IMG/VR virus record: IMGVR_UViG_2648501669_000022
Location: 1 to 12,974 of that record
Source: a virus
Lineage: Duplodnaviria > Heunggongvirae > Uroviricota > Caudoviricetes
DNA length: 12,974 bases
Reading direction: 5' to 3' (one strand)
Shown: piece by piece, positions 1,216 to 12,446 of the stretch
How positions within the stretch are numbered: the stretch's first letter is position 1
Layout: the number at the start of each line of letters is the position of its first letter
Position numbers and translations under genes: made by a program
Notes under the pieces: generated by a model
Seen by the model: only the letters and a program-made list of their open reading frames with translations
What the model was told of the DNA's origin: nothing
Database searches by the model: none

Positions 1216-1343
1216 CTGGTTGAGTATACAGTAGTAGACTTTGAGCGACGAAAGAAAAGGCTGTGTCTAGGGTCGCTCCCGAAAATCCGTACACCTCGAC
1301 GGACTGGTACAGCCACTACAGTAGAGGACGCTGAGGTGTGCGT

Positions 1344-2141
1344 ATGATTGATATTCATGCCGAATTAAACGAATACAAAAAAGATTTTATTTCTTTACGT
1401 GAATTTCTTGAGGTCGTGCTTAAGGTCGCTGGTGATGATTATGATGTTTCAGATGTCATAACTTGGATACTCAGGAGAATAAGCGGAGAACATATCCGCC
1501 TGTACACAGTAAATGAATTTAAGCTGTTGGAATCTTTTTGTAGCCCGTATCGGGATGAATTTGATTATGATGTTCTTTATAGAAATCTGAATGCGGTTCG
1601 GAAACGTGGTTGTTTACCTGGTGAGAGGGATGAAAATGGTTTTCTGGTGTCCGGTTATTGGGAAGATCCCGAATTTGAGAACATTGGATTTATAAGGGGT
1701 GAAATTTTCGCAATTTTTCCCGATGTCCTTGACGCGTTAACGAAGCTGGAAGGCGCTAACTCTTCTGAAAATGACGAGGCACAAGGACGCGATATTGAAA
1801 AGAAAGAGTTGCGTACAGAGGATGATTTATTATCCCAAATCGCAATGCTGGAAAAAGAAAACGCAGAGTTAAGGGCAAGGATAGAGCAGTTAGAGCAAGA
1901 GCGCCCGATACACTTATATAAATACTGGGATAAAGACCCATTAGCTAAGGCTATTGAGATTAGAAACAGAGAGTGGGCCAATTACGATCCAGAAAATGAT
2001 TTTGCCACCAGGGGAAATCAAGAAGCGATAACCAGGGAGCTTAAGCAGTGGGGGGCAAGTAATGCACTTGCAACGCTCATAGAGAGGACTGCCTGCCCTA
2101 TTAACCGAGACAACAGCCAAAAGAACGCAAAGCCGGATTAA
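1344..2141 (+). CDS. Hypothetical cargo protein (265 aa) with a central leucine-zipper-like coiled coil; function unknown
   Basis: ATG at 1344 with GAGGT 6 nt upstream (the track's 1338 start is a GTG lying on the SD). Visibly AT-richer codon usage than its neighbours. Heptad-like segment LLSQIAMLEKENAELRARIEQLEQER. Followed immediately by a strong intrinsic terminator. No catalytic motif recognised. Confidence 0.65.
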   Translation: MIDIHAELNEYKKDFISLREFLEVVLKVAGDDYDVSDVITWILRRISGEHIRLYTVNEFKLLESFCSPYRDEFDYDVLYRNLNAVRKRGCLPGERDENGFLVSGYWEDPEFENIGFIRGEIFAIFPDVLDALTKLEGANSSENDEAQGRDIEKKELRTEDDLLSQIAMLEKENAELRARIEQLEQERPIHLYKYWDKDPLAKAIEIRNREWANYDPENDFATRGNQEAITRELKQWGASNALATLIERTACPINRDNSQKNAKPD

Positions 2142-2154
2142 CGCACCATACCGC

Positions 2155-2197
2155 ATACCCTGAGGGTGATTTACTGTTACCCTCAGGGTATTTTTTT
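2155..2197 (+). terminator. Rho-independent terminator after the cargo gene
   Basis: Perfect 13-bp stem ATACCCTGAGGGT (2155-2167) / ACCCTCAGGGTAT (2179-2191), 11-nt loop, then a run of 7 T (2191-2197). Confidence 0.8.
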
Positions 2198-2214
2198 ATC
2201 TTCCCCGTCAATTT

Positions 2215-2302
2215 TACCATCACCCTTAGGGTAGATTTCCTCCCGATTACCATCACCCTTATGGTTAATTTCCTTCCGGTAACCATTAGGCCTGAGGGTA
2301 TG
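2215..2302. repeat. Tandem 33-bp direct repeat (2.6 copies) carrying ACCCT-N-AGGGT palindromes, upstream of alpA
   Basis: Unit 1 (2215-2247) and unit 2 (2248-2280) are 28/33 identical; partial third unit 2281-2302. Palindromes ACCCTTAGGGT (2222-2232), ACCCTTATGGT (2255-2265), CCTGAGGGT (2291-2299); the same palindrome forms both arms of the upstream terminator. Confidence 0.7.
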
Positions 2303-2368
2303 AAAATATTCGTTATTTCTGTGCCATGATTACCTCGTCAAATTGAGTAGACGTTATGAGGTAAATAT

Positions 2369-2566
2369 ATGTCAAATACGCTTATTCGTTTAACAGAAGT
2401 TCAGCGTAGAACTGGATATAGCAAGGCATGGATTTATCGCCTTATGGGGCAAGGTAAATTTCCTGCATCAGTTAAAATTGGCTCGCGAGCTATTGCTTTC
2501 GTTGAGAGTGAAATTGACGAGTGGATTAATCAGCGTATTGCGGAATCACGCGGAACAGCTACCTGA
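2369..2566 (+). CDS. alpA: AlpA-family (Xis/MerR-like HTH) transcriptional regulator
   Basis: 65 aa; RLTEVQRRTGYSKAWIYRLMGQGKFPASVKIGSRAIAFVESEIDEWINQR matches the AlpA/Vis-type signature found next to P4-family integrases. GAGG 7 nt upstream of the ATG. Confidence 0.85.
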   Translation: MSNTLIRLTEVQRRTGYSKAWIYRLMGQGKFPASVKIGSRAIAFVESEIDEWINQRIAESRGTAT

Positions 2567-2643
2567 TTAAATGGCTACGGGGCTTTTCCCCCCAGCTATC
2601 CACCAGCAAATAAAAGTAACTTAATTCGATAGCAGGAGTTTTT

Positions 2644-3444
2644 ATGAAACTGCGAAAAACGCCCGTACAGGGGCAGGGCTTCGTTCGGCCTGAAAACCAG
2701 AATCTGCAAAATTTCGGCGAAATTATCCCGATTATTTCCGGCGTTATTGGCGGGAGTGAAACCACTATTGTTAGCGCCAGAGCGTTACATAAGGCGTTAG
2801 GTGTAGGGCGCGTTTTCCGTTCGTGGATCAAGGGGCGCATTGAAGAATACGGGTTCACGGAAGGCGTGGATTATGAGGTTGTTGAATATTTGAGCCGACC
2901 CGATCCGGTGAGCGCAAAATCTCGCCAGCAAACCGCTCTTGAGTACATCATCACAGTGAACATGGCGAAAGAACTGGCGATGGTCGAACGTACCGAACAG
3001 GGCCGCGCCGTTCGCCAGTACTTTATCAAATGCGAGGAGGAGCTACACAAGGTAGCGCCAGTGCGTTCCGCAGCGTTACGCCGGGAACTGAAAGCCCGTA
3101 TCACCGTTGCCAGCTACTTTAAGCCAATGTGTGCCGCGCTGGAGGCGTACCGGGCTGAACTGGGTAAAAACACGTTCCAGCACCACTACACCACGGAAGC
3201 CAATATGCTGGCGCGTATCGTGCTGGGTGGCATGACTGCAAAACAGTGGGCGCAGGCGAACGGCATCACAGGCGAACCACGCGACCACATGAGCACGTTG
3301 CAGCTTGAGCACCTTTCTTACCTTGAGCAGAGCAATATCACGCTGATTGAGTTAGGCCAGGGCTACCACCAGCGGAAAGCTGAATTAATTCGTCTTTCGC
3401 AGCGTTGGTTAGCCCGTCGCATGGAGGAAAACAGCCATGTGTAA
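2644..3444 (+). CDS. AntA/AntB-type antirepressor-like protein (N-terminal domain), C-terminal domain unknown
   Basis: 266 aa; N-terminal segment SARALHKALGVGRVFRSWIKGRIEEYGFTEGVDYEV resembles the AntA/AntB N-terminal domain as I remember it. AGGAG 5 nt upstream of the ATG. Confidence 0.6.
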   Translation: MKLRKTPVQGQGFVRPENQNLQNFGEIIPIISGVIGGSETTIVSARALHKALGVGRVFRSWIKGRIEEYGFTEGVDYEVVEYLSRPDPVSAKSRQQTALEYIITVNMAKELAMVERTEQGRAVRQYFIKCEEELHKVAPVRSAALRRELKARITVASYFKPMCAALEAYRAELGKNTFQHHYTTEANMLARIVLGGMTAKQWAQANGITGEPRDHMSTLQLEHLSYLEQSNITLIELGQGYHQRKAELIRLSQRWLARRMEENSHV

Positions 3445-3750
3445 CGCTCTGACCGTTACAAAAAGAAAAAGCGCCCCGTTGCCGGAGCGCCTTTGTGAAC
3501 GAATAGCCTACTGCGCCATATTGCTTACTGTCTACGAGGCAGATTATAGCGTTGTGGTCGCACAGAGTGAAGGCGCAGATCACCGTTACTACAGCACACC
3601 AGAAATGCAGAATATTTTGCTGCAAAATGTCGTTGGCCACGCTGTCCGGAAAGCAAAAAATTTTGCTGGTGGCGTGACTGATACGATTTTTTCTGGTTGC
3701 TCGGTGCTGATCAACTTAACCTGGACTTATGTACAACATTGCAACTATTC

Positions 3751-3897
3751 CTACTTTAAGCTGAATGTAACTTTACCTATATCATTAGAGGTATGGTCGC
3801 GCTTGACCTCAATTTCACCATTTTGTAGCCCTGCTACAAAAAAATATAAAAGTGTCAATGTTGCTGCAATCAGTAACCATTTTCCAAAAATATACAT
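3751..3897 (-). CDS. Small membrane peptide (48 aa), not in the ORF track
   Basis: Translated by hand from the minus strand: MYIFGKWLLIAATLTLLYFFVAGLQNGEIEVKRDHTSNDIGKVTFSLK. One predicted TM helix at the N-terminus. Starts 21 nt downstream of the Arc-like stop on the same strand; AT-rich; weak SD-like AAGGG upstream. Confidence 0.35.
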   Translation of the reverse strand: MYIFGKWLLIAATLTLLYFFVAGLQNGEIEVKRDHTSNDIGKVTFSLK

Positions 3898-3918
3898 TCT
3901 TGATTTTACCCTTAATCG

Positions 3919-4092
3919 TCAACCTTTTGGCACGATGCCTCGCTGTTGTAATTCTTTGCGGAGCACTCGTTTAATCCAGGTAGCTAATGAGGTGTCGCCG
4001 TCTGCTTTGGCTGCCTCCTCAAGTTGTGCCCTAAATTCTTCTGGTAGCCGCATTTGGTATGGTGGCGATCGTTTTTCTAATGGTGTTGACAT
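3919..4092 (-). CDS. Arc/MetJ-type ribbon-helix-helix DNA-binding protein (57 aa), not in the ORF track
   Basis: Translated by hand from the minus strand: MSTPLEKRSPPYQMRLPEEFRAQLEEAAKADGDTSLATWIKRVLRKELQQRGIVPKG. Beta-strand-like PYQMRLP followed by two helices is the Arc/Mnt pattern. The start codon is embedded in a palindromic operator. Confidence 0.65.
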   Translation of the reverse strand: MSTPLEKRSPPYQMRLPEEFRAQLEEAAKADGDTSLATWIKRVLRKELQQRGIVPKG

Positions 4093-4144
4093 GGTAATTA
4101 CCCATAATTACTATAGTTACACGGTAATTACCATTGTACTTACC
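4093..4144. promoter_or_regulatory. Divergent promoter/operator region: perfect 10-bp palindrome GGTAATTACC x2 plus a degenerate third site
   Basis: GGTAATTACC at 4093-4102 (abutting the Arc-like start codon) and 4123-4132, 30 bp centre to centre; degenerate copy GTACTTACC at 4136-4144; TATAGT-like -10 for the minus strand at 4111-4116. Confidence 0.55.
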
Positions 4145-4228
4145 ATTGCAAAAAAAACAACGCCCCGGACTGCGGGAACAGTACCAGGGCGTCTAACCAC
4201 CAACGATAGCGAAAGTATCGAGGTAGCT

Positions 4229-4432
4229 ATGATAAATCATACCACACACCCGCAAGGGCGGGACTCGCACAACCTGAATAAATACATCTGGCGTTTTATC
4301 GCCCTGAGCACGGCACAACCGCGCGTAATTCACATCGAGGCCACCAGCGAACAGGAAGCACGCCAGCAATCTCCTGATGGCTGCGTGATGGTATTCGCCG
4401 CCCGTATTCGCCAGGAGGTGCACCATGCATAA
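4229..4432 (+). CDS. Hypothetical protein (67 aa), first gene of the replication operon
   Basis: This is only the 3' part of the 331-aa track ORF (3437-4432). ATG at 4229 with GAGGT 4 nt upstream; the upstream 800 nt of that ORF overlaps the Arc-like gene and the intergenic region and translates to low-complexity sequence. Stop overlaps the next start. Confidence 0.5.
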   Translation: MINHTTHPQGRDSHNLNKYIWRFIALSTAQPRVIHIEATSEQEARQQSPDGCVMVFAARIRQEVHHA

Positions 4433-4790
4433 CCTGTCAATTTCTGACCTTAACAGCATTCAGTTTGATGAGAAATTTACCGGGCAGCTACTGGTCAATG
4501 TGGAGAATGGACGCGTGGTAAGTAATTACCACCTGCCGGATGGTGCAATTGCCGGAAGTGTTGAAGCATTGCTGGAGCTGGCAGAACGTGCGCGACTGAT
4601 TAAGCCGTCAACGTGCCATCACGATGATGATCTGCATTTTACCGGACGCATGGTGAGTCACTACGAAAACGGCGTTGAGGTATCCCGCGAACGTATGCGT
4701 GATAATTGCTGTTTCGGAACACTGCCGGAATTTATCGAATTGCTGACCAGTTGCGGTTATCAGGTTATTCAGGGGGTGAATCATGGATAA
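4425..4790 (+). CDS. Hypothetical protein (121 aa) made of two tandem copies of a ~50-aa FTG-motif domain
   Basis: AGGAGGTG 4 nt upstream of the ATG. Internal repeat: FTGQLLVNVENGRVVSNYHL... and FTGRMVSHYENGVEVSRER.... Start and stop both overlap neighbouring genes. Confidence 0.6.
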   Translation: MHNLSISDLNSIQFDEKFTGQLLVNVENGRVVSNYHLPDGAIAGSVEALLELAERARLIKPSTCHHDDDLHFTGRMVSHYENGVEVSRERMRDNCCFGTLPEFIELLTSCGYQVIQGVNHG

Positions 4791-4983
4791 TCAGCAAGCA
4801 ACAATGACAATTACCCTGAGTGTGCCAGATGATTTCACCGGACGCGTACTGGTTTACCTGGATAAAGGGAAAGTGAAATCACAATGCCGACTGAAAAGTA
4901 ATGAGATTGTTGGTTCTCCTGAATTTTTTTCTGAACTTTGTATTCGTGCGAAAATAAAACCGGAACTGCTGACAGGAAAATAA
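4783..4983 (+). CDS. Hypothetical protein (66 aa), single-copy paralogue of the FTG-motif domain
   Basis: FTGRVLVYLDKGKVKSQCRL...GSPEFFSELCIRAKIKPE aligns with both repeats of the upstream gene; AGGGGGTGA upstream. Confidence 0.6.
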   Translation: MDNQQATMTITLSVPDDFTGRVLVYLDKGKVKSQCRLKSNEIVGSPEFFSELCIRAKIKPELLTGK

Positions 4984-4987
4984 AACC

Positions 4988-5278
4988 ATGAAAAAGAAAA
5001 ATTCTGGCTTTACTGCCAGCGGCCCCGCTCGGCCTGAAATCAGACACGGAGATATTTACCGCGACACCAGACGTGGGGGACGAGTGGTTATTCGTCACGT
5101 TACGCCAGGCAATATCACCTACCGCCGTGAGGCTTACGAATATGACTGCGTAATGCCGCGCCGTCAGTTTGAGCGTGATTTTATTCTGGTGGAAAACAAA
5201 CAACAGGCGGTGGCAAGACGTGCAGCCACGAATATTAAAAAAATCCGGGCAATGTTGGTTGCGGGAGGTAAGAAGTGA
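4988..5278 (+). CDS. Hypothetical basic protein (96 aa)
   Basis: ORF with AGGAAAA upstream; stop overlaps the GTG start of the helicase gene. No family recognised with confidence. Confidence 0.5.
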   Translation: MKKKNSGFTASGPARPEIRHGDIYRDTRRGGRVVIRHVTPGNITYRREAYEYDCVMPRRQFERDFILVENKQQAVARRAATNIKKIRAMLVAGGKK

Positions 5279-6687
5279 AAAACGCACCGAATTTGAAATA
5301 TCAGCCGAAGGATAAATTCACTGAGGTAATCATTTTTGCCGGGACGGACGCTTACTCCCATGCTCAACACTGGATTGAAAGCGAAGGACGGAAACACGGC
5401 GATAATGTGCCACCTGTTTACCTGGGGCCAAAGCAACTGGCAGACCTGGCGAATATCCGCATTATTGACGAGAAACGCCGCTTTGCACGTGTCTATCTCG
5501 CGGGGGAGATCGAACCAATCCAGATCAATGCTATCGCTGAAAAGCTGGCGCTGGCTGGCGTACAGGAGGCGAAATTATACAAAGGTATCACCGACCGGGA
5601 GCCGGAGAACTGGCGCGACTACCTGCAACGGATCCGCGAACAGGCAGAGCGCGAAGAAATGCTTACTGACGAGCAATACAGCCAGCGAAAAACCACACTA
5701 CCAATGAGTATTGGATCTGCAGGGTACGACACACAGCTTGATTATGTCGTTAAGGGCGTGATTCCGGCTAATTCATTGTGCAGCACATACGGCGCGAGCG
5801 GTTCCTATAAATCGTTCCTCGCGTGTTCCTGGGCGTGTCATGTTGCCACGGGTCGCCACTGGGGAGGCCGCAGGGTGGCGCATGGTTCGGTGATGTATGT
5901 CGTCGGTGAAGGTGGCATTGGTGTCCCTCGTCGTATCAAAGCATGGGAAATCGTTAATGATGAACGGGTGAAAAATCTGTACCTGGTAAACCGCCCGATT
6001 TTTCCGGCGGTCCCGCTTGATGTTGATGAAATGGTCATCGCTTCCCGTCAGGTTGAACGGGAAACGGGTAAACCGGTACGCATGATTATTCTGGATACGC
6101 TGGCGCGTTGCTTTGGCGGTAATGATGAAAATGACGCGCGGGATATGGGGGCGTTTATCCGTGGATGTGACGAACTGAAACGACGCACGGGGGCCACGGT
6201 ACTGGTGGTTCACCATTCCGGCAAGGATGAAACAAAAGGGGCGCGTGGTTCCAGTGCATTTCGTGCATCTCTGGACGCTGAATACCGTATTCGCCGTGAA
6301 GGTGCGGACAGTGAAGCCCTGGTTATCTCCTGCACCAAAATGAAGGACGCGGAGGAACTGAAAGAGGCTGCATATGATTTACGCGTGGTGGAGCTTTTTA
6401 CCGACACTGACGGGGAGTTAATCACGTCGCTGGTGGTTGTGGATAAGCCGCGCCCACCTGTTGAACTGGAACGCATCGAGGAGGCCGGGAACAAGACGGA
6501 AAATCACGCTGCGCTATGGCAGTGCATCAGAACGCGAACAGCACACGGGGAGGCGTGCACTATCGCCCTTCTCCGCGATGATATGAAAAAGCTGGGGTAT
6601 GAAATGAAAAACTTCCGGCGCTGGCTGTACAAGCTGGAAAGCGACGGCGTAATCGCTATTGACGGTGATTATGTGCGCCCACTGTAA
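5275..6687 (+). CDS. RepA/DnaB-like RecA-fold replicative helicase (the family I remember as AAA_25), probable replication initiator of the island
   Basis: 470 aa; GTG start with GGGAGGT 5 nt upstream. Walker A-like GASGSYKS, Walker B-like ILDTLARCF, and VLVVHHSGK motif typical of RepA-type helicases. Its stop abuts the iteron array. Confidence 0.8.
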   Translation: MKNAPNLKYQPKDKFTEVIIFAGTDAYSHAQHWIESEGRKHGDNVPPVYLGPKQLADLANIRIIDEKRRFARVYLAGEIEPIQINAIAEKLALAGVQEAKLYKGITDREPENWRDYLQRIREQAEREEMLTDEQYSQRKTTLPMSIGSAGYDTQLDYVVKGVIPANSLCSTYGASGSYKSFLACSWACHVATGRHWGGRRVAHGSVMYVVGEGGIGVPRRIKAWEIVNDERVKNLYLVNRPIFPAVPLDVDEMVIASRQVERETGKPVRMIILDTLARCFGGNDENDARDMGAFIRGCDELKRRTGATVLVVHHSGKDETKGARGSSAFRASLDAEYRIRREGADSEALVISCTKMKDAEELKEAAYDLRVVELFTDTDGELITSLVVVDKPRPPVELERIEEAGNKTENHAALWQCIRTRTAHGEACTIALLRDDMKKLGYEMKNFRRWLYKLESDGVIAIDGDYVRPL

Positions 6688-7075
6688 AAAGTGAGGAGCA
6701 AAAGTGAGGATGGCGGGTAATTTAACAAAAAATCAACGCCACTCCTCACTTTCTCACCTGTATATAGGTCAAAAAGTGAGGAATGAAAAACATATTGTAA
6801 AACAAGACATTACAACAACAAGAAAAACAGGTGAGGAGCAGGACGGGAATAACAAAAAGTGAGGAACAAAAGTGAGGAATGGTGAGTTAATAGAAATGAG
6901 GTAATAAAAATAACAGGTAGGTTAAAAAACACACCATGCAAGATATTAACTAAAACTTAACTATTTACCTCACTTTTGCGTATATATAAGGATTAAAAAG
7001 TGAGTACTTAAAAATACATTTAAAATCATATTGTTATTAACTTCATAAATTTTCACTGTGCAGCAGGTGAGGAAT
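6688..7075. repeat. Putative origin of replication: AT-rich iteron array, core GTGAGGA
   Basis: Direct copies of GTGAGGA at 6691, 6704, 6776, 6831, 6859, 6872 and 7067; inverted copies at 6743-6749 (TCCTCAC) and 6967-6973 (ACCTCAC); variants GTGAGTT (6882) and GTGAGTA (7010). Most are preceded by an A-run; the region is strongly AT-rich. Confidence 0.7.
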
Positions 7076-7153
7076 TAAAAAATTAGGAATGTTAAAAATG
7101 AAAACAGAATGTTGTGTCAGTGCCGTTGGGCAACGTAGCAATCAGTAAAAACG

Positions 7154-7696
7154 ATGGGGCAAAGCATGACTAAGCTGACCATTAACAGAAAACCTAAAGG
7201 CATTTACGGCACGCCGCAGAAAACGACGCAGGCGGCGCAGGAGCAGGATAAAACCACGTCGGCGCATAAAGTGATGCCCGGTAACCAGAAAGCGCAGCAG
7301 AAGCCCACAGGGGCGACACCGTGGCGGCATATGACCAAGCGCCAGCGCAAAAACCGCAGGCGCGTTAACCGCCTTATCGAACTGTGGCCAGAATTATTCA
7401 GCCGGGAAGCACCGAAGCCGCTTAAGGTGGGGATATTTGACGACCTGATGCAGGATCTCGCCGTCAGGGGGCTGGCATTCGGGCCAGGGGCATTACGTGC
7501 GACGCTGGCATCTTATGCGCAGTGTCCGCGCTATTACCGCGCCTTAATGGCTGGTGGGGTACGCTACGACCTGAAAGGCCAGCCGTGCGGCGAGGTGACA
7601 CCACAGGAACAACAGGACGCAGAAACGCGGCTGGTGGCGCTGAATGAGAAGCGCAAACGTCAGCGCCGGGCAGCAAAGGAGAAAACAGGCGCATGA
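7154..7696 (+). CDS. ProQ/FinO-domain RNA-binding protein with a basic N-terminal extension
   Basis: 180 aa; LIELWPELFSREAPKPLKVGIFDDL...RYDLKGQPCGEVTPQE parallels the ProQ N-terminal/FinO signature as I remember it (PLKIGIF.DL ... R.DLDG.PCGEL). The first ~70 aa are Lys/Arg/Gln-rich. Exact start uncertain (ATG 7154 or 7166). Confidence 0.7.
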   Translation: MGQSMTKLTINRKPKGIYGTPQKTTQAAQEQDKTTSAHKVMPGNQKAQQKPTGATPWRHMTKRQRKNRRRVNRLIELWPELFSREAPKPLKVGIFDDLMQDLAVRGLAFGPGALRATLASYAQCPRYYRALMAGGVRYDLKGQPCGEVTPQEQQDAETRLVALNEKRKRQRRAAKEKTGA

Positions 7697-7980
7697 TTCA
7701 CGACAGCAAAGCGGAAGCACTGGAAGCGCGTGGTCTGTACCGGAGAGCGGCGGCGCGGTGGGCTGAGGTCATCATGCTGGCGAATGATGACAAGGCACGG
7801 GAACAGGCGGCAAAACGTCGCGCGGAATGTATCCGCAAGGCAGCACGCCCACCAGCAAGGCAGGATAATTTCGGGGAGATGCGCGAAACCATCAGCCGGG
7901 CACATGCCGGGATGGGATTACATCAGCCCAATGGTAAGGCATTCAGGAAATACCCTGGATCGAAAAATTGCAGTCAGTGA
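7693..7980 (+). CDS. PerC-family transcriptional activator-like protein
   Basis: 95 aa; N-terminus MIHDSKAEALEARGLYRRAAARWAEVIM fits the PerC/Pch pattern (E..G.WRRAA.RW) from memory. ATGA overlap with the upstream stop; followed by tandem terminators. Confidence 0.6.
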   Translation: MIHDSKAEALEARGLYRRAAARWAEVIMLANDDKAREQAAKRRAECIRKAARPPARQDNFGEMRETISRAHAGMGLHQPNGKAFRKYPGSKNCSQ

Positions 7981-7985
7981 CGGAG

Positions 7986-8009
7986 GCCGGGATTTTTCCC
8001 GGCTTTTTT
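7986..8009 (+). terminator. Rho-independent terminator (first of two)
   Basis: Stem GCCGGG (7986-7991) / CCCGGC (7998-8003), loop ATTTTT, then 6 T (8004-8009). Confidence 0.75.
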
Positions 8010-8022
8010 GTGCCAGTAAAAA

Positions 8023-8056
8023 GCCCGCAGCCAGAAGTGTTGCGGGCTTTGTTTTT
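8023..8056 (+). terminator. Rho-independent terminator (second of two)
   Basis: Stem GCCCGCA (8023-8029) / TGCGGGC (8041-8047), 11-nt loop, then TTTGTTTTT (8048-8056). Confidence 0.7.
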
Positions 8057-8181
8057 CAGGTGATTGAAGTCAATGGGAAGAACGCGATCATCATGCGTTA
8101 TTGTTTCATAAATTGCAATGATGTAGATCGTCATTTCAGTTTGTGCAATCATAATCATTGTTTTGTTCAGGAGATATGACT

Positions 8182-8355
8182 ATGAGAAAAGCCAGCGTGA
8201 AACCCGTTTTACTCGCTCGTGAGCAGATTGAAGCATTACAGCGCATCCAGGACGAGGAACGCCGCAATTCTCCGCTGGGGATTGCTCCGAGCATTCATGA
8301 GGTCGCCCGGCGTTTAATGCAGCGGGCGCTTTATCCCGTAGAACGTCCGGCCTGA
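8182..8355 (+). CDS. Small hypothetical protein (57 aa), first gene of the late-like operon
   Basis: AGGAG (8169-8173) lies 8 nt upstream of the ATG at 8182; the track's 8158 start and the 8176 ATG have no usable SD spacing. Helical, charged sequence; possible small regulator. Confidence 0.5.
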   Translation: MRKASVKPVLLAREQIEALQRIQDEERRNSPLGIAPSIHEVARRLMQRALYPVERPA

Positions 8356-8394
8356 TGGTCGTGATTTTTTGGTGAAAAAAGAGAGGTGATAAAA

Positions 8395-8973
8395 ATGCCA
8401 GCAAGCAAAGAAGATTTGCGATTAAAACTGATGGAGGTGGTTAACGCTCTGTCAGAGTCGCAGGGCAGCACTCCGCAGGAGATTATCGAAATTCTGAATG
8501 CGATCCCCGCACAGGATTTCATAAAAGAGGATAACGCTAATCAAAACATCGTCGCGTCAGTCGAAGATGAATCCTCACTGGCAGAAGCCCAGGCTAAAGC
8601 AGATTCCGCATACAGCAATATGGGCCGTCGCGCTCCAGCCCCGTTTGCTGGTGAAAAGTCGATGGATTACCGCAAGCGTGCATTAATTGGTGCACAGAAG
8701 CTGGCTAAAAAATTCAGTGATGTGGATATTCGTTCCGTTTCAGATTCTGCAACGCTGGCGGTGCTGGAAGATCAGATTTACCAGGCTGCAAAAGACAGTG
8801 TTCAGTGGGCCGTGGAAAACACGCCGGGCCATTTGGGTAAAACCGTAAGAATGGATGAAGCTGGTCGTCGTATTACTGAATATCAGGGCGATCCGAACGT
8901 CTGGCTGAACGCCTTCAAAATCCCTCCCCGTCGCCTGGTCAAAATTAACACTGCAAGCCTCGCGGGGGCATGA
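8395..8973 (+). CDS. Hypothetical protein (192 aa), acidic helical N-terminal half
   Basis: ATG at 8395 with GAGAGGTG 6 nt upstream (the track's 8386 start is a GTG inside the SD). No family recognised. Confidence 0.6.
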   Translation: MPASKEDLRLKLMEVVNALSESQGSTPQEIIEILNAIPAQDFIKEDNANQNIVASVEDESSLAEAQAKADSAYSNMGRRAPAPFAGEKSMDYRKRALIGAQKLAKKFSDVDIRSVSDSATLAVLEDQIYQAAKDSVQWAVENTPGHLGKTVRMDEAGRRITEYQGDPNVWLNAFKIPPRRLVKINTASLAGA

Positions 8974-8990
8974 AAAACGTGCTGAGTTCA

Positions 8991-9021
8991 GCCCTGCCGG
9001 ATTTGGCGGGGCTTATTGCTT
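8991..9021 (+). promoter_or_regulatory. Intergenic stem-loop with U-rich tail (weak terminator or attenuator)
   Basis: Stem GCCCTGCC (8991-8998) / GGCGGGGC (9005-9012) with one G-U wobble, loop GGATTT, then TTATTGCTT. Confidence 0.35.
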
Positions 9022-9037
9022 ATAACCGGATAACATT

Positions 9038-9709
9038 ATGCTTTTAACAGAAATTGAGGCGGCAAAGCAGATTCGGGACGGTCAGCTACCGTCGCCTTAT
9101 CAGTTTTCCAACATGTGGCTGGTTAACCTGCGTATTACAGGAACCGGTATGGCCTACCGCGCCGAAGAAAAAGAATTTGTCTGGCGTTCACCGCAAACTT
9201 ATCTCAATCCGCAGTTCCTGGAACGTTGCGCCGGAGTACCCGTCATTATCGACCATCCCGAAGGCAAAACCATTGAAGACGTTGGCGAACGGTCGCGCAT
9301 TATTGGCACCGTCATGTTGCCGTATATTCGCGGTGACGAGGTGTGGGGTGTATGCCGGATTTACGGGCAGGAAATCATCGATTACATCCAGAAAGCACGG
9401 GGGGAGGTATCCACCAGCCCGTCGGTTGTGTTTTGTGGTGCGTCCGGTGGGGCAGAAGTTCCTGATGTAATGGGCGAGGACAATTTTTTCATTGAGGGTA
9501 CGCCATTCCTTATCGATCACGTTGCGCTCGTGCCGCTTGGTGTTTGGGATAAGGGCGGGAAACCATCGGGTGTGGAGGTAACAACGCCGACAGCAGAAGA
9601 ACAGCTCGCCGGAATGGTCCGGGACGTTATTGATGCGGCCTGCAAGCCAGCCCTGGAAAAACTGGAAGAAATATCCGGGCGGCTGGCTCAACTGGAAAAA
9701 ACAGAGTGA
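9038..9709 (+). CDS. Hypothetical protein (223 aa); weak resemblance to HK97-type prohead proteases
   Basis: Size and a His (VPVIIDHPEG, residue 73) to Ser (GEVSTSP, residue 125) spacing of about 52 aa recall HK97-family prohead proteases; this is memory of motif shape only. C-terminus is coiled-coil-like. Confidence 0.55.
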   Translation: MLLTEIEAAKQIRDGQLPSPYQFSNMWLVNLRITGTGMAYRAEEKEFVWRSPQTYLNPQFLERCAGVPVIIDHPEGKTIEDVGERSRIIGTVMLPYIRGDEVWGVCRIYGQEIIDYIQKARGEVSTSPSVVFCGASGGAEVPDVMGEDNFFIEGTPFLIDHVALVPLGVWDKGGKPSGVEVTTPTAEEQLAGMVRDVIDAACKPALEKLEEISGRLAQLEKTE

Positions 9710-9716
9710 GTGAATC

Positions 9717-10334
9717 ATGAAAATTGCTAAAAACTTAAATCTGATTATCCCTGTGCGCACTGAAAAGGGAAATGGCTGGATCCATGCCACGCCGATCAGC
9801 AAAGAGGTGTTTAAAGAGCATTTCTTCATCCTGAGTAAAACCTTTTCTGCCATTTTTTCTGAAGGTCTTGGTGTTGTTGCGGGTCCGCGCGTTGCCTGCC
9901 TTATGCTGGAGAAAATCTCCCGTGACTCCGGTTTATGGGATGGGGAGAAAGGCATACGTAATACGCTCATAAACGAAATTATTCGCCTGGCAAACCTTGT
10001 TTATCCAGTGGAGGGCAAAGGCTACGACACAATCCCTCTCGATATGGCGCTGGAGCGTGAAATCGTTGATTTGGACGAAGTGGCGGGTGAACTTGTTTTT
10101 TTTACATGCGTCTCGTCGATAAATTCCCCGGAGCAGACGAAGGGGACTATGGATGCGGTGAATGGAATATGGAGCACTCAATGCTCGTCCTTGAGTCTTA
10201 CGGAATGGATCGCTTCATTGCCGACATTGAAGCCTGCCGTCAGTTCTGGCGCGACGGCGAACACGTCATCAGCGACATCCTCGACTACTCAGCCGGAGCC
10301 GGATTCAGAGACATCTGTGCAGATTCCGGTCTGA
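9717..10334 (+). CDS. Hypothetical protein; zero-frame ORF convincing only to about 10105, possible tail-assembly-chaperone-like gene
   Basis: GAGTGAG 6 nt upstream of the ATG. The first ~129 codons look protein-like; after the T8 run the zero frame becomes Ser/Thr-rich low complexity and loses the G-rich first codon position, which the -1 frame shows instead. Confidence 0.5.
   Translation: MKIAKNLNLIIPVRTEKGNGWIHATPISKEVFKEHFFILSKTFSAIFSEGLGVVAGPRVACLMLEKISRDSGLWDGEKGIRNTLINEIIRLANLVYPVEGKGYDTIPLDMALEREIVDLDEVAGELVFFTCVSSINSPEQTKGTMDAVNGIWSTQCSSLSLTEWIASLPTLKPAVSSGATANTSSATSSTTQPEPDSETSVQIPV
10097..10103 (+). other. Candidate -1 slippery heptamer T_TTT_TTT within a T8 run (10096-10103)
   Basis: Zero-frame codons are GTT TTT TTT. 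The -1 frame has a stop at 10088-10090, opens at 10091 and runs to 10399. Confidence 0.4.
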
Positions 10335-10399
10335 ATGTAAAAACAGCAGCTCAGTTTCGTGAGCTGCTCAAATTCAAGAATCCCGCAGGAGTATTGTAA
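10106..10399 (+). CDS. -1 frame ORF (97 codons from the ATG), likely translated as a frameshift extension of the upstream gene or as its own product
   Basis: Better codon-position bias than the overlapping zero frame; its stop overlaps the next start (TAATG at 10397-10401), indicating translational coupling to the 680-aa gene. Confidence 0.5.
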   Translation: MRLVDKFPGADEGDYGCGEWNMEHSMLVLESYGMDRFIADIEACRQFWRDGEHVISDILDYSAGAGFRDICADSGLNVKTAAQFRELLKFKNPAGVL

Positions 10400-12441
10400 T
10401 GTCAGGTAATCAGATGCCAGTTCTGACGCTGGACGTTAATGAAGAACACCTCAAACGGCTTGAGGCAATTTTTGAAAAGTATCGCAACGGGCTGATGATC
10501 GGCCCTGCAGGAACGCCGATGAAAATACCGGGGCAAAGTGGGCGCAGCGTGGGGGCAGGCTTACCCGTGGCGGCAAAATCTGGTCGGACAGGACCGGATG
10601 TATCCGGGAGAGTGAGGGACGAAAAAGGGCGCTTTGTCGGCAGTGGAAAAACAGCAGATTCGTTCGTAAGCAACTATAAAGGTCGCGGCGAAACGATGTT
10701 TGATAAGTATCTCAGCGGGCTGGGGAAAAATGCCCAACAGACGCTGAAAACTTACAAGCAGATCAATTCTACGCTACAGACGACCACTTCGAGATTAAAC
10801 AACCTGTTTAAAACAACCGTATCGTGGGGGACAAAACTTGCGGTTATGGGCGTTGCCGGGCCGTTTGGCTTTGGCATGATGTCTCGTAGTGTTGTAGAGA
10901 AACAGAAAAATGCAGATGAGCTGGTGGCAACGCCGGGAGAATTAAAGGCGGCAGAGAGTACCTATTCACCTTATTTTTCCGGTGTTGGCAATGTGCTCAA
11001 TACACTGGCAGCCGCGCAAAATGATCAAGAACACCCCGCCCGCGTTGGCCTGCTTCATCTGGGGATTAATCCTGATAAAAACGCGACTGAAAACCTGCCT
11101 GTATTCCTGAAAAAGGTTGCAGAGCTGGCAAAGGAATATCAGGGAAGTGGTCTTACCCAGAGTATGCTCAGGGGAAGAGGGCTTGGATGGGTAAATTTTG
11201 GTCTTACTAACCAGTTAGTCAAATATCAGGACAAAATACCTGAACTCAACAAAGAGTTTTCGTTACGTGCAGCGCAGAATGATTCGTTACTGACCTCTGC
11301 ACATACAAGTAAATATCAGAATCTTACCAGTAACCTGGAAAAAAACTGGGATCGGCTTACCAGCGGATTTCAGGGAGCAATGGCGGGGAATGAAGACGCT
11401 TTAATCAGAATGTCTGATGGTACCACGAATGCTGCCCTGAATTTCATGAATGGTGAGAACTTTAAAAGGATTCTGACTGATGTTGAAACGGGGCTGGATA
11501 AACTTGGTAAGTACGTTAATGGCCCGGATTTTAATAACGACCTGAACAATTTTGCCGAAAACGTTGCAAAGGTCACCAAGGCACTTAGCGGATTTGTTGG
11601 TTTTGCCGTTGAACATCCCTGGCTTTTTGGGGCCGCAGTGCTTGCGGGGCCATCAAGAGTTGGTGCCGTGGCAGCCACAACAACCGGAGTTGCCGCTCGT
11701 GTTGTCGGTGGAAGTCTTCTTGGGGCTACAGCCGGAACAGTAGCAGGATTGGCTATTCCTACAAATAACACACCTACCACCAGTGAGGAAATGAAAGGGC
11801 TGGAGGGGCGTTTCAACTTTGATTATTTTAACGAAGTGCAGGAGTGGCAAAAAAACAATCCGGGTAAGGTCTGGCCTGGAGGATTGCAGGGATTTTCAAA
11901 TCAAGTAAACAGATCTGCATATTTATCCAGAGGGATCAGGAATAACAATCCCGGAAATCTTAATTTCGCAGGACAAAAAGGGGCTACCCTGGAATCGGGG
12001 CCAAATGCCCGTTTTGCCAGCTTCCCGACGATGCTGGAAGGCATTGCTGCCTTAGATCGGCAGGTAATGCTATACCTGAAACGCGGCAAAAATACGATTG
12101 ATCAGATCATTGATATTTATGCCCCTTCATCTGATGGAAATAACACATCGTCCTATAAAAGCTATCTCTCTCAGTACACCGGTTTAGGTGTTAAGGAGAA
12201 AATTGATGGTTCTAATTTTGAGGTCATGAAAAAGCTAATTCAGGGCATTATTAACCATGAAAATGGTGCTGCCGCTAAAGCTGTAAGTGTTGAAGATGTG
12301 ATCCGGGCGCTGGCTATGAATCGTGGGATTGTCCCTACAGCAGGAAATAATAATCAGAACGTTAAGCTTGATATTCTTCAAAAACCAGGCTCCGACATAG
12401 TCGCTCAACTGGCCGGATTTTCGGGGCTTATGCCGAGGTAA
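10399..12441 (+). CDS. Large tape-measure-like protein (680 aa) with Gly/Ala-rich hydrophobic segments and a C-terminal NNPGN-motif domain
   Basis: AGGAG 7 nt upstream of the ATG. Central segment AVEHPWLFGAAVLAGPSRVGAVAATTTGVAARVVGGSLLGATAGTVAGLAIP; N/T/S/K-rich helical regions; C-terminal RGIRNNNPGNLNF...IYAPSSDGNN. The gene itself is well supported; the function is a guess. Confidence 0.7.
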   Translation: MSGNQMPVLTLDVNEEHLKRLEAIFEKYRNGLMIGPAGTPMKIPGQSGRSVGAGLPVAAKSGRTGPDVSGRVRDEKGRFVGSGKTADSFVSNYKGRGETMFDKYLSGLGKNAQQTLKTYKQINSTLQTTTSRLNNLFKTTVSWGTKLAVMGVAGPFGFGMMSRSVVEKQKNADELVATPGELKAAESTYSPYFSGVGNVLNTLAAAQNDQEHPARVGLLHLGINPDKNATENLPVFLKKVAELAKEYQGSGLTQSMLRGRGLGWVNFGLTNQLVKYQDKIPELNKEFSLRAAQNDSLLTSAHTSKYQNLTSNLEKNWDRLTSGFQGAMAGNEDALIRMSDGTTNAALNFMNGENFKRILTDVETGLDKLGKYVNGPDFNNDLNNFAENVAKVTKALSGFVGFAVEHPWLFGAAVLAGPSRVGAVAATTTGVAARVVGGSLLGATAGTVAGLAIPTNNTPTTSEEMKGLEGRFNFDYFNEVQEWQKNNPGKVWPGGLQGFSNQVNRSAYLSRGIRNNNPGNLNFAGQKGATLESGPNARFASFPTMLEGIAALDRQVMLYLKRGKNTIDQIIDIYAPSSDGNNTSSYKSYLSQYTGLGVKEKIDGSNFEVMKKLIQGIINHENGAAAKAVSVEDVIRALAMNRGIVPTAGNNNQNVKLDILQKPGSDIVAQLAGFSGLMPR

Positions 12442-12446
12442 TACCC

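What the first reader, a model, noticed from the sequence alone, without database searches (positions are those of the whole stretch)
5275..7150. Self-contained replicon: RepA-like helicase followed directly by a GTGAGGA iteron origin
The helicase gene ends at 6687 and at least nine GTGAGGA iterons in both orientations fill the next ~390 bp of AT-rich DNA. An initiator with its origin immediately downstream is the satellite/PICI arrangement, and it implies that the helicase C-terminal ~100 aa carries the iteron-binding module. The irregular spacing and mixed orientation of the iterons are worth mapping.
Basis: partly seen in the sequence, partly recalled or inferred. Interest (0 to 1): 0.45.

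Follow-up and report, generated by a model that had tools for sequence, protein, structure and literature searches.

The report
PICI replication module: helicase-initiator plus iteron origin
This is the replication module of an E. coli phage-inducible chromosomal island: a helicase that probably also recognises its own origin, followed directly by that origin; the kind is already known, but relatives suggest one amino acid sets which repeat sequence is read.

Summary
A 470-aa RepA-type helicase gene (5275-6687) is followed by a 463-bp AT-rich stretch. That stretch holds 8 exact and 3 one-mismatch GTGAGGA copies (8 on +, 3 on -); about 1 is expected in the whole window.

- The island has the backbone of Gram-negative PICIs, in the order int, AlpA, DUF4222, Rep, ori, PerC.
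- Its helicase is 80% identical to the "Pri-Rep" of the named PICI EcCI042, which has the same iterons.
- A 96-98% identical sister island differs only in 5654-7149. There an SF3 primase-helicase and GGTAGACAG iterons replace the helicase core and the GTGAGGA iterons.
- In 86 loci across Enterobacterales the repeats keep the same offsets from the stop codon, while their sequence changes with the helicase.
- The last ~65 aa are predicted to form a winged helix. Residue 446, just before the recognition helix, tracks iteron base 4: N with A, H or K with G, S/G/A with C. Near-identical E. coli pairs differ by N446H and by seven parallel A-to-G iteron changes.

Verdict: a new member of a known kind. 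The "irregular" spacing is a conserved design. The suggested recognition rule is the part worth testing.

The parts
4988..5278 (+). DUF4222 gene whose stop overlaps the rep start (GTGA). It lies directly upstream of Rep in most E. coli/Salmonella islands examined, whichever Rep type they carry.
   Evidence: Pfam DUF4222 E=1.4e-19. Same position upstream of Rep in ETEC1749, ETEC4077, EcCICFT073, EcCI042, ATCC 25922 and L085-L092. It is not annotated upstream of the primase in EcCIRM13514, and in L088 a 78-aa ORF lies between it and Rep. Its role is unknown.
5275..6687 (+). rep: 470-aa RepA/SF4-type helicase, proposed to be a self-loading initiator.
   Evidence: ORF list; AAA_25 E=2.8e-44; RSF1010 RepA 1g8y E=3.3e-5. 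Walker A (GASGSYKS, aa 173-180), Walker B (ILDT, aa 272-275) and HHSGK/ARGSS are invariant in 30 homologues. 79.8% identical to the EcCI042 Rep.
5275..5652 (+). N-terminal domain (aa 1-126) shared between different Rep alleles. It lies outside the exchanged block.
   Evidence: 96% identical to the N-terminus of the SF3 'DNA primase family protein' of ETEC4077 and 50% identical to that of the EcCICFT073 Pri-Rep. pLDDT is 82-92 with alternating strands and helices. No Pfam hit. Similarity to Toprim is only weak (E=0.13).
5654..7149 (+). The exchanged block: helicase core, C-terminal domain and the whole iteron region.
   Evidence: Window and ETEC4077 align at 96-98% over 1-4772, 4973-5653 and 7150-12974 but not over 5654-7149. 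There ETEC4077 carries a D5_N/DUF5906/Pox_D5 primase-helicase and GGTAGACAG iterons.
6487..6684 (+). C-terminal winged-helix domain (aa ~405-470), the proposed iteron reader.
   Evidence: In the full-length model: helices 409-423, 430-439 and 447-456, strands 460-463 and 466-469, pLDDT 86-93. The domain modelled alone gives the same topology. The top Foldseek PDB hits are predominantly winged-helix DNA binders: Fur, PcaR, DtxR/IdeR, MCM C-terminal winged helix, histone H1 (probability 0.99-1.0, TM about 0.6).
6610..6612 (+). Codon AAC = Asn446, directly before the recognition helix; the candidate residue that reads iteron base 4.
   Evidence: The motif K445-x-F-x-R-W-L-x-K-L is almost invariant (F447 is M or L and R449 is K in a few homologues). 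Column 446 has the highest mutual information with iteron class (1.71 bits) and partitions the five classes perfectly in 69 classified loci. E. coli proteins P0019 and P0022 have H446, and their origins carry GTGGGGA.
6691..6697 (+). Iteron 1, GTGAGGA (4 nt after the stop codon).
   Evidence: An iteron sits at this offset in most relatives.
6704..6710 (+). Iteron 2, GTGAGGA (13 bp after iteron 1).
6713..6719 (+). Decayed third site of the first triplet (GCGGGTA).
   Evidence: It aligns with an intact GTGGGGA in L085 and L086. Relatives have a site at about +26.
6743..6757 (-). Two inverted iterons: GTGAGGA (6743-6749) and GTGAGAA (6751-6757).
   Evidence: An inverted site at about +51 to +56 is present in nearly all relatives.
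6759..6767 (.). TGTATATAG box between the inverted and direct iterons. It is conserved whatever the iteron class; a candidate first melting site.
   Evidence: TATA[TC][AG] lies at +50 to +85 in 76 of 86 loci and almost nowhere else in the first 230 bp.
6776..6782 (+). Iteron, GTGAGGA (+89). It forms an inverted pair with 6743-6749 around the TATA box.
   Evidence: (inverted repeat I3).
6783..6830 (.). 48-bp AT-rich spacer (25% GC) between the two proximal iteron sets.
   Evidence: [quoted passage not shown]
6831..6837 (+). Iteron, GTGAGGA (+144).
6842..6848 (+). Decayed site (GACGGGA).
   Evidence: It aligns with GTGGGGA in L086.
6859..6888 (+). Second triplet: GTGAGGA (6859-6865), GTGAGGA (6872-6878) and degenerate GTGAGTT (6882-6888). 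Spacing is 13 + 10 bp, as in the first triplet.
   Evidence: Sites at +172/+185/+195 in relatives.
6891..7063 (.). Distal AT-rich region (25% GC). It holds a second inverted pair, GTGAGGT (6967-6973, - strand) and GTGAGTA (7000-7006, + strand), around GTATATATA (6980-6988).
   Evidence: (repeat I1: the 37-nt arm 6968-7004 mirrors 6745-6781). The region lies inside the exchanged block. It is absent from islands where an 83-aa gene follows at about +200.
7067..7088 (+). Distal iterons: GTGAGGA (7067-7073) and degenerate ATTAGGA (7082-7088), just upstream of the ProQ/FinO gene.
   Evidence: ETEC4077 has its own GGTAGACAG pair at the equivalent place.

Best explanation
Window 5275-7150 is the replication module of a Gram-negative phage-inducible chromosomal island (PICI) of the EcCI042 Rep type.

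Inferred mechanism: Rep is a RepA/SF4-type (RecA-fold) hexameric helicase that also serves as initiator. Its C-terminal winged helix binds the AAAGTGAGGA iterons that begin 4 nt after its stop codon. The sites form two triplets (13 + 10 bp spacing) and an inverted pair around a conserved TATATA box, flanking a 48-bp spacer of 25% GC. A further AT-rich stretch with a second inverted pair follows. Binding would concentrate Rep at the origin, melt the AT-rich DNA and let the helicase load itself, as has been shown for the SaPI Rep proteins. Asn446, directly before the recognition helix, is proposed to read the A at iteron position 4.

Shown here: the sequence features, their enrichment, the exchange of the module as a block, the conserved layout, the co-variation between protein and DNA, and the predicted fold. 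Inferred: binding, melting, self-loading and autonomous replication. This Rep lacks the zinc-ribbon and Toprim primase domains of its longer relatives, so priming probably depends on the host.
For: Enrichment: 8 of the 10 exact GTGAGGA copies lie in 6691-7073, against 1.09 expected in the whole window. With one mismatch allowed there are 11 sites in 481 bp against 23 in the other 12.5 kb.

Context: int, AlpA, AntA, DUF4222, Rep, ori, ProQ/FinO and PerC all lie on the + strand. EcCICFT073 has the same backbone order int, AlpA, DUF4222, Rep, ori, PerC, and its pri-rep-ori fragment was shown to drive plasmid replication (PMC6092414). The named PICI EcCI042 carries a RepA-family helicase 79.8% identical to this one, with N446 and AAAGTGAGG iterons.

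Block exchange: ETEC4077 is 96-98% identical outside 5654-7149. Inside that interval it carries an SF3 D5-type primase-helicase and GGTAGACAG iterons in both orientations around AT-rich DNA.

Conserved layout with changing sequence: in 80 loci from genome contigs plus 8 more, iterons sit at about +2, +13, (+22), +51 (inverted), +85, +145, +172 and +184 from the stop codon. Their sequence is GTGAGGA, GTGGGGA, GTGGGGGA, GTGGGGGC, GTGCGGC or GTGCGCG according to the helicase.

C-terminal reader: a winged helix is predicted with pLDDT 86-93, and fold matches are winged-helix DNA binders. Column 446 partitions perfectly with iteron class in 69 classified loci. On a tree built from the ATPase core, the residue and iteron classes interleave, so this is not a simple clade effect.

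Near-isogenic test: the last 40 aa of P0022 differ from the window only by N446H and Y466D. The two origins align, and all seven intact proximal iterons differ by the same A-to-G change at position 4 (mean column identity 89% in the three-sequence alignment with L085).

Precedent: SaPI Reps are self-loading helicases whose C-terminal winged helix binds iterons directly downstream of rep (PMC9371898).
Against: No experiment on this allele was found in the papers searched. Only the SF3-type EcCICFT073 module was tested for replication, and EcCI042 did not transfer in that study's assay (Table 1 of PMC6092414).

The full-length model is poor in parts of the ATPase core (pLDDT below 50 for residues 152-177 and 315-398). 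Fold matches for the small C-terminal domain have modest E-values (0.02 and weaker).

One Salmonella locus (L091, N446) has a mixture of A-type and G-type iterons, so the residue-to-base rule is not absolute. H446 goes with both GTGGGGA and GTGGGGGC, and S, G and A all go with C-type iterons, so other residues must contribute.

Co-variation could arise from joint inheritance of the C-terminal domain and the origin by recombination, without residue 446 being the contact.

No primase domain is present, so 'self-contained' may overstate autonomy.
Confidence: 0.85

Rival explanations
1. The repeats are operator sites for a transcription factor (for example AlpA, PerC, or Rep acting only as an autoregulator) that controls the downstream ProQ/FinO-PerC operon. 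On this view they are not an origin.
For: The region lies directly upstream of the ProQ/FinO gene, and its last iterons end 66 bp before the start codon. A TGTATATAG box resembles an extended -10 element and is conserved. Iterons of plasmid replicons commonly also act in autoregulation (general knowledge).
Against: The repeats are exchanged together with the Rep core, not with the flanking regulators. AlpA, ProQ and PerC are 96-98% identical in ETEC4077 while the repeats are entirely different. The same repeats follow the helicase whatever the downstream gene is: ProQ, an 83-aa ORF plus SSB, or CoiA. No sigma-70-like promoter was found in 6500-7300. The equivalent region of EcCICFT073 was needed for plasmid replication (PMC6092414). 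A secondary regulatory role is not excluded.
Confidence: 0.07
2. Rep is only the replicative helicase, as RepA is in RSF1010. On this view the iterons are bound by a separate initiator encoded elsewhere in the island or by the helper phage.
For: The closest solved relative, RSF1010 RepA, is a helicase that relies on a separate iteron-binding protein, RepC (for the match; the RepC role is general knowledge). Binding by this Rep has not been shown.
Against: The exchanged block 5654-7149 contains no other credible gene. The 52-aa ORF 6704-6862 lies inside the repeats and is not called in relatives. This Rep has an extra C-terminal winged helix that the match to the 279-aa RSF1010 RepA does not cover (the match spans query residues 154-319). 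Residue 446 in that domain tracks the iteron sequence.
Confidence: 0.05
3. The repeats are a packaging (pac or cosB-like) site recognised by a small terminase.
For: PICIs carry packaging signals, and the island has a TerS-like helix-turn-helix ORF at 12447 onward (phrog_57, E=1.3e-7).
Against: That TerS-like gene is conserved in ETEC4077, where the repeats differ. The repeats co-vary with the helicase across genera, whatever the late genes are. In EcCICFT073 the cos sites were tested as elements separate from the pri-rep-ori fragment (PMC6092414).
Confidence: 0.03

Closest known systems
EcCI042 Rep-ori (E. coli 042 PICI; 'Pri-Rep' allele CBG34588 in Fillol-Salom et al. 2018, PMC6092414)
   Same: A RepA-family helicase of 466 aa, 79.8% identical over its full length. 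It has the same KNFRRWLYKL motif with N446. AAAGTGAGG iterons start right after the stop codon, with the inverted site and the TATA box at the same offsets. A DUF4222 gene lies upstream.
   Different: The origin of EcCI042 is short (about 200 bp) and is followed by an 83-aa gene, SSB and PerC. The window has an extra 260-bp AT-rich distal part with more iterons, followed by ProQ/FinO and PerC. The late genes also differ: capsid and decoration proteins in EcCI042, against DUF2213 and a 680-aa transglycosylase-domain protein here.
EcCICFT073 pri-rep-ori (the experimentally validated Gram-negative PICI replicon)
   Same: Same island backbone and gene order. The Rep N-terminal ~125 aa are homologous (50% identity). 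The origin lies directly downstream, with iterons in both orientations around AT-rich DNA. Rep and ori were both required for plasmid maintenance (PMC6092414).
   Different: Its motor is an SF3 D5_N/DUF5906/Pox_D5 primase-helicase, not an SF4/RepA type. Its iterons are GGTAGAC/GGTAGAT.
SaPI Rep proteins (Rep1, PriRep5, Rep2), self-loading helicases of Staphylococcus aureus pathogenicity islands
   Same: One protein is both initiator and helicase. A C-terminal winged helix recognises short iterons placed directly downstream of rep. The origin has an AT-rich centre and iterons pointing in opposite directions (PMC9371898).
   Different: The SaPI motors are SF3 or SF6/MCM AAA+ ATPases, whereas this one has a RecA fold of the RepA/SF4 type. 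No sequence similarity to the SaPI Reps was detected or tested here.
T7 gp4 / Twinkle-type primase-helicases
   Same: An SF4-type helicase core. Longer relatives of this Rep in Xenorhabdus, Serratia and Pantoea have the full order of zinc ribbon, Toprim, then helicase. The best whole-model fold matches are Twinkle and T7 gp4.
   Different: The window protein has no zinc ribbon and no detectable Toprim. It has a C-terminal winged helix and a cognate iteron origin, which I do not associate with gp4 or Twinkle (from memory, not tested here).
RSF1010 RepA helicase (PDB 1g8y)
   Same: The closest solved structure by sequence, matching aa 154-319 at E=3.3e-5; same Pfam family AAA_25.
   Different: In RSF1010 the helicase does not read the origin: a separate protein (RepC) binds the iterons and RepB' primes (general knowledge). 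Here a winged helix is fused to the helicase.

Membership tests
Gram-negative PICI (EcCI) replication module | The replication initiator gene is followed at once by an origin made of iteron sets flanking an AT-rich region. | tested here: met
   Iterons lie at 6691-6782 and 6831-6888 around a 48-bp spacer of 25% GC, with a distal AT-rich part carrying more iterons. The definition is from PMC6092414.
Gram-negative PICI (EcCI) replication module | Island context: integrase at one end, an AlpA regulator, unidirectional transcription, and no full set of phage structural or lysis genes. | tested here: met
   int 1-1215, AlpA 2369-2566, and all long ORFs on the + strand. The late genes are a few phage-like proteins only. 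The island ends are not in the window. The sister island lies next to tRNA-Gly.
Gram-negative PICI (EcCI) replication module | Homology of Rep to the Rep of a named PICI. | tested here: met
   79.8% identity over the full length to the EcCI042 helicase. The N-terminal domain is 50% identical to that of the EcCICFT073 Pri-Rep.
Gram-negative PICI (EcCI) replication module | Helper-phage-dependent induction, excision, replication and packaging; rep-ori able to drive plasmid replication. | not testable with these tools
   This needs wet-lab work. It was shown only for EcCICFT073 (PMC6092414).
RepA/SF4-type (DnaB-like, RecA-fold) hexameric helicases, Pfam AAA_25 | A RecA-type ATPase core with Walker A, Walker B and an arginine finger. 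| tested here: met
   AAA_25 E=2.8e-44 over aa 151-319; 1g8y E=3.3e-5. The GASGSYKS, ILDT, HHSGK and ARGSS motifs are invariant.
RepA/SF4-type (DnaB-like, RecA-fold) hexameric helicases, Pfam AAA_25 | Hexamer formation and 5'-to-3' unwinding. | not testable with these tools
   A biochemical property.
SaPI-type self-loading Rep helicases | A C-terminal winged-helix domain that reads iterons located just downstream of rep. | tested here: met
   By prediction only: the winged-helix fold and the co-variation of residue 446 with iteron base 4. Binding itself was not tested.
SaPI-type self-loading Rep helicases | An SF3 or SF6 (AAA+) motor domain. | tested here: not met
   The motor is of the AAA_25/RecA-fold RepA type. 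So this protein works like a SaPI Rep but is not a member of that family.
T7 gp4-like bifunctional primase-helicase | An N-terminal zinc ribbon and a catalytic Toprim primase domain. | tested here: not met
   No Pfam hit in aa 1-132 even at E=1. Longer relatives do have Zn_Ribbon_Prim and Toprim_3. Similarity of the window N-terminus to Toprim is weak (E=0.13).
Iteron plasmid initiators (Rep_3/RepA type, e.g. pPS10, F, R6K) | A dedicated initiator without helicase activity, and an origin upstream of or separate from rep with direct 17-22 bp iterons. | tested here: not met
   The Pfam scan of the window ORFs returned no such initiator family. The repeats are 7-10 bp, in mixed orientation and downstream of a helicase gene.

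The most novel reading that the evidence does not exclude
One residue at the start of the recognition helix of Rep (position 446: N, H, K, or S/G/A) sets the base or bases read at iteron position 4 (A, G, GG or C). That would create natural, switchable specificity classes of an SF4-type self-loading initiator-helicase, a motor type I did not find described in this role. The switch would proceed through concerted change of about ten iterons together with one codon, as the E. coli N446/GTGAGGA and H446/GTGGGGA pairs suggest.
Probability: 0.5. Interest if true: 0.55.

Novelty: new member of a known kind. Interest (0 to 1): 0.4.

Why it matters
The module itself adds nothing new about how PICIs replicate. 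Rep followed by an iteron origin is the published hallmark, and this Rep allele is already present in a named PICI.

The comparison does give three useful results.
- It shows cleanly that the Rep core and the origin move between islands as one exchangeable cassette, with a breakpoint at about aa 129.
- It maps an origin layout that is conserved across Enterobacterales.
- It yields a residue-level, directly testable rule for initiator-origin specificity, resting on natural near-isogenic N446/A and H446/G pairs.

If the rule holds, it would help explain how related satellites could keep separate replication specificities. It would also offer a simple way to build orthogonal replicons.

Tried and rejected
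- Promoter and terminator scan of 6500-7300: no sigma-70-like promoter, and only one terminator-like site, on the - strand inside the ProQ gene. This does not exceed the shuffles.
- Rfam on the whole window: nothing in the origin region. No tRNA genes.
- Phage collection: only three weak partial DNA hits, so this is not a known phage replicon.
- The 52-aa ORF 6704-6862 inside the repeats is annotated as hypothetical in ETEC1749. I treated it as spurious, because it is made of iterons and is not called in relatives.
- A first search for specificity-determining positions over the whole core flagged several columns (145, 158, 240, 249, 254, 283, 296). Each only separates the GTGGGGGA clade from the rest, which is a clade effect, so I dropped them. 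Only column 446 separates all classes.
- A first attempt to fetch EcCICFT073 by guessed coordinates returned a lambdoid prophage. ED1a was not in the collection.
- Whole-model Foldseek gave poor superpositions (rmsd about 21 Å), so I use it only as a hint of a gp4/Twinkle-like domain order.
- I asked whether iteron classes diverge to avoid cross-talk between co-resident islands. The evidence is mixed. Xenorhabdus TCT-1, X. bakwenae and Pectobacterium B2J-2 each hold two islands of the same class. Pantoea dispersa S68 and one MAG hold GTGGGGA plus GTGGGGGC. I did not pursue this.
Full report
**1. The observation**

The ORF 5275-6687 (GTG start, 470 aa) exists, and its start overlaps the stop of the upstream DUF4222 gene. 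It matches Pfam AAA_25 at E=2.8e-44. Its closest solved relative by sequence is the RSF1010 RepA helicase (1g8y, E=3.3e-5, aa 154-319). The Walker A, Walker B and arginine-finger motifs are invariant in 30 homologues.

Downstream, exact GTGAGGA occurs 8 times between 6691 and 7073. The whole window holds 10 copies, against 1.09 expected from shuffles, and no shuffle gave more than 6. With one mismatch allowed there are 11 sites in 481 bp, against 23 in the remaining 12.5 kb. Eight sites are on the + strand and three on the - strand. The intergenic region is 33% GC and contains two stretches of 25% GC.

**2. What the element is**

The window is an island with, all on the + strand:
- a tyrosine integrase (1-1215);
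- AlpA (2369-2566) and an AntA-domain protein;
- DUF4222, then the helicase and the repeat region;
- ProQ/FinO, PerC and a few phage-like late genes.

E. coli genomes hold many relatives: 795 of 5,426 match the region and 2,006 match some part of the window.

This organisation is the one published for Gram-negative phage-inducible chromosomal islands. [quoted passage not shown] It also showed that the EcCICFT073 pri-rep-ori fragment maintains a plasmid only when both rep and ori are intact (PMC6092414).

I fetched EcCICFT073. Its order is int, AlpA, DUF4222, Rep, ori, SSB, PerC. Its Rep is an SF3 D5-type primase-helicase, and its iterons are GGTAGAC.

I also fetched EcCI042, another PICI named in that paper. 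Its Rep is a 'helicase RepA family protein' 79.8% identical to the window's. It has the same C-terminal motif, and AAAGTGAGG iterons follow its stop codon. The window's module is therefore the EcCI042-type Rep allele, one of the four 'Pri-Rep' alleles listed in that paper's Fig. S10.

**3. Rep and the repeats belong together**

*Block exchange.* A sister island in strain ETEC4077 is 96-98% identical to the window over 1-4772, 4973-5653 and 7150-12974, but unrelated over 5654-7149. The unrelated interval is exactly the helicase from about aa 129 onward plus the entire repeat region. In ETEC4077 it is replaced by a D5_N/DUF5906/Pox_D5 primase-helicase. That gene is followed by GGTAGACAG repeats in both orientations around AT-rich DNA. 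The first 129 aa of the two Rep proteins are 96% identical. The enzyme core and the repeats are thus exchanged as one cassette, while every flanking regulator stays the same.

*Conserved layout, changing sequence.* I took 80 loci with helicase homologues from one genome per species (48-73% identity over aa ~135-470) and 8 more loci fetched by exact protein. In these the repeats sit at nearly fixed offsets from the stop codon: about +2, +13, (+22), +51 inverted, +85, +145, +172 and +184. The window's offsets are +4, +17, +56 (inverted), +89, +144, +172 and +185.

The repeat sequence changes with the helicase:
- GTGAGGA in E. coli, Xenorhabdus and Gilliamella;
- GTGGGGA in Pantoea, Kluyvera and Kosakonia;
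- GTGGGGGA in Pectobacterium, Serratia, Morganella, Erwinia and others;
- GTGGGGGC in two loci;
- GTGCGGC in Citrobacter, Leclercia, Enterobacter and Phytobacter;
- GTGCGCG in a Salmonella locus and a metagenomic contig.

A TATA[TC][AG] box lies between the inverted and direct repeats (+50 to +85) in 76 of 86 loci, whatever the repeat class, and almost nowhere else. Alignment with E. coli relatives shows that two of the window's ten ancestral sites have decayed, at 6713-6719 and 6842-6848.

**4.

The AlphaFold model is confident for aa 1-126 and 401-470 and poor in parts of the ATPase core. Residues 409-470 form three helices and a beta hairpin. The domain modelled alone keeps this topology. 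Its best PDB fold matches are predominantly winged-helix DNA binders: Fur, IclR-type PcaR, DtxR/IdeR, the C-terminal winged helix of MCM, and histone H1 (probability 0.99-1.0, TM about 0.6).

Within this domain the motif K445-x-F-x-R-W-L-x-K-L is almost invariant (F447 and R449 vary conservatively in a few homologues). Position 446, directly before helix 3, is the only alignment column that separates all iteron classes (mutual information 1.71 bits):

| Residue 446 | Iteron |
|---|---|
| N | GTGAGGA |
| H | GTGGGGA or GTGGGGGC |
| K | GTGGGGGA |
| S | GTGCGGC |
| G or A | GTGCGCG |

On a neighbour-joining tree built from the ATPase core alone, these classes interleave. N and H alternate several times inside the E. 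coli clade, and H and S alternate at least three times in another clade. The match is therefore not a simple clade effect.

The sharpest case is within E. coli. In their last 40 residues, proteins P0019 and P0022 differ from the window by N446H and one other residue each (M444V in P0019, Y466D in P0022). Their origins align with the window's at 89% mean column identity. All seven intact proximal iterons differ by the same single change, A to G at position 4.

Further loci mostly agree:
- P0025 (N) has GTGAGGC/G.
- P0059 (H) has GTGGG(C/A/T).
- P0101 (H) has nine GTGGGGA copies.
- One Salmonella locus (P0066, N) has a mixture of A-type and G-type repeats and is a partial exception.

Asn contacting adenine, and His or Lys contacting guanine, are common amino acid-base pairings (general knowledge). 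The proposed contact is chemically plausible but unproven.

**5. Mechanism proposed**

Rep is a RecA-fold, RepA/SF4-type hexameric helicase that carries its own origin reader. The winged helices would bind the repeat arrays on both sides of the AT-rich DNA. The inverted pair around the TATA box, or the 25% GC spacer, would melt. The helicase would then load itself.

This is how the SaPI Rep proteins work: self-loading helicases with a C-terminal winged helix, iterons immediately downstream of rep, an AT-rich centre, and probably one hexamer on each side (PMC9371898). The motor family differs, since SaPI Reps are SF3 or SF6. The window's protein therefore works like them without being a member of their family.

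Longer relatives in Xenorhabdus, Serratia and Pantoea carry a zinc ribbon and a Toprim domain ahead of the same helicase, which makes them gp4-like primase-helicases. The window's protein has only a 126-aa N-terminal domain, with no Pfam match and at best weak Toprim similarity. It is probably not a primase, and replication would need the host primase. 'Self-contained' should be read as initiator plus origin, not as a complete replication apparatus.

**6. Rivals**

- *Operator sites for the downstream operon.* This is contradicted by the block exchange, by the variety of downstream genes among relatives, and by the lack of a promoter-like site. A secondary regulatory role is not excluded.
- *A separate initiator, as in RSF1010.* This is unlikely, because the exchanged block holds no other credible gene and this Rep has the extra winged helix.
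- *A packaging site.* This is unlikely, because the TerS-like gene is conserved where the repeats differ.

**7. Novelty and verdict**

The arrangement and even this Rep allele are already in the literature as part of named PICIs, so this is a new member of a known kind. I found no description of three things in the papers searched:
- the RepA/SF4 nature of this allele;
- the conserved origin layout across Enterobacterales;
- the link between residue 446 and iteron base 4.

These are predictions, and natural near-isogenic controls make them straightforward to test. Interest is moderate.

Noticed in passing
window 1260-1327 (+): Rfam int-alpA RNA motif (RF02996, 45.5 bits against a gathering score of 35.8), just downstream of the integrase gene and upstream of a 267-aa ORF with no family match.
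   Followed up: no
window 5275-5660; L002 8084-8470; L084 5242-5620: The first ~126-129 aa of Rep form a confidently folded domain shared by unrelated Rep motors: 96% identical to the SF3 primase allele of ETEC4077 and 50% identical to the EcCICFT073 Pri-Rep. The recombination breakpoint lies right after it. A translationally coupled DUF4222 gene lies directly upstream of it in most islands examined. The function is unknown; it may be a common docking domain.
   Followed up: partly
window 6704-6862 (+); L001 10029-10181: A 50-52-aa ORF lying entirely within the iterons is annotated as a hypothetical protein (WP_001372362.1) in RefSeq. It is probably a spurious gene call, with GTGAGGA read as a Shine-Dalgarno sequence plus start codon.
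   Followed up: partly
window 7154-7980 (+): A ProQ/FinO-domain protein (180 aa) and a PerC-family regulator follow the origin directly. No partner RNA was found by Rfam.
   Followed up: no
window 8386-12974 (+): The late region differs from that of EcCICFT073 and EcCI042, which have capsid and decoration genes. Here there are two phrog_6216 proteins (one with DUF2213, with head-maturation-protease-like similarity), a phrog_11810 protein, a 680-aa protein with a lytic transglycosylase-like C-terminal part, and a TerS-like HTH ORF that runs to the end of the window.
   Followed up: no
L091 2601-3080 (Salmonella, Logan SRR3081675): The helicase has N446, but its origin mixes GTGAGG-type and GTGGGG/GTGGGT-type repeats. 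This could be a recombinant or an origin caught in transition. It is the one partial exception to the residue-base rule.
   Followed up: partly
L006/L012, L009/L014 (Xenorhabdus); L034/L056 (Pantoea dispersa S68); L052/L054 (Pectobacterium): Several genomes carry two islands with this helicase family. Some pairs share the iteron class and some differ (GTGGGGA against GTGGGGGC). There is no clear sign that the classes diverge to avoid cross-talk.
   Followed up: partly
window 3437-4432 (+): The C-terminal ~90 aa of this 331-aa ORF match phage 'transcriptional repressor' families (phrog_6196, E=9e-53). Relatives annotate short ORFs at this position as Icd-like cell-division inhibitors, which suggests a fusion or a differently called gene here.
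   Followed up: no
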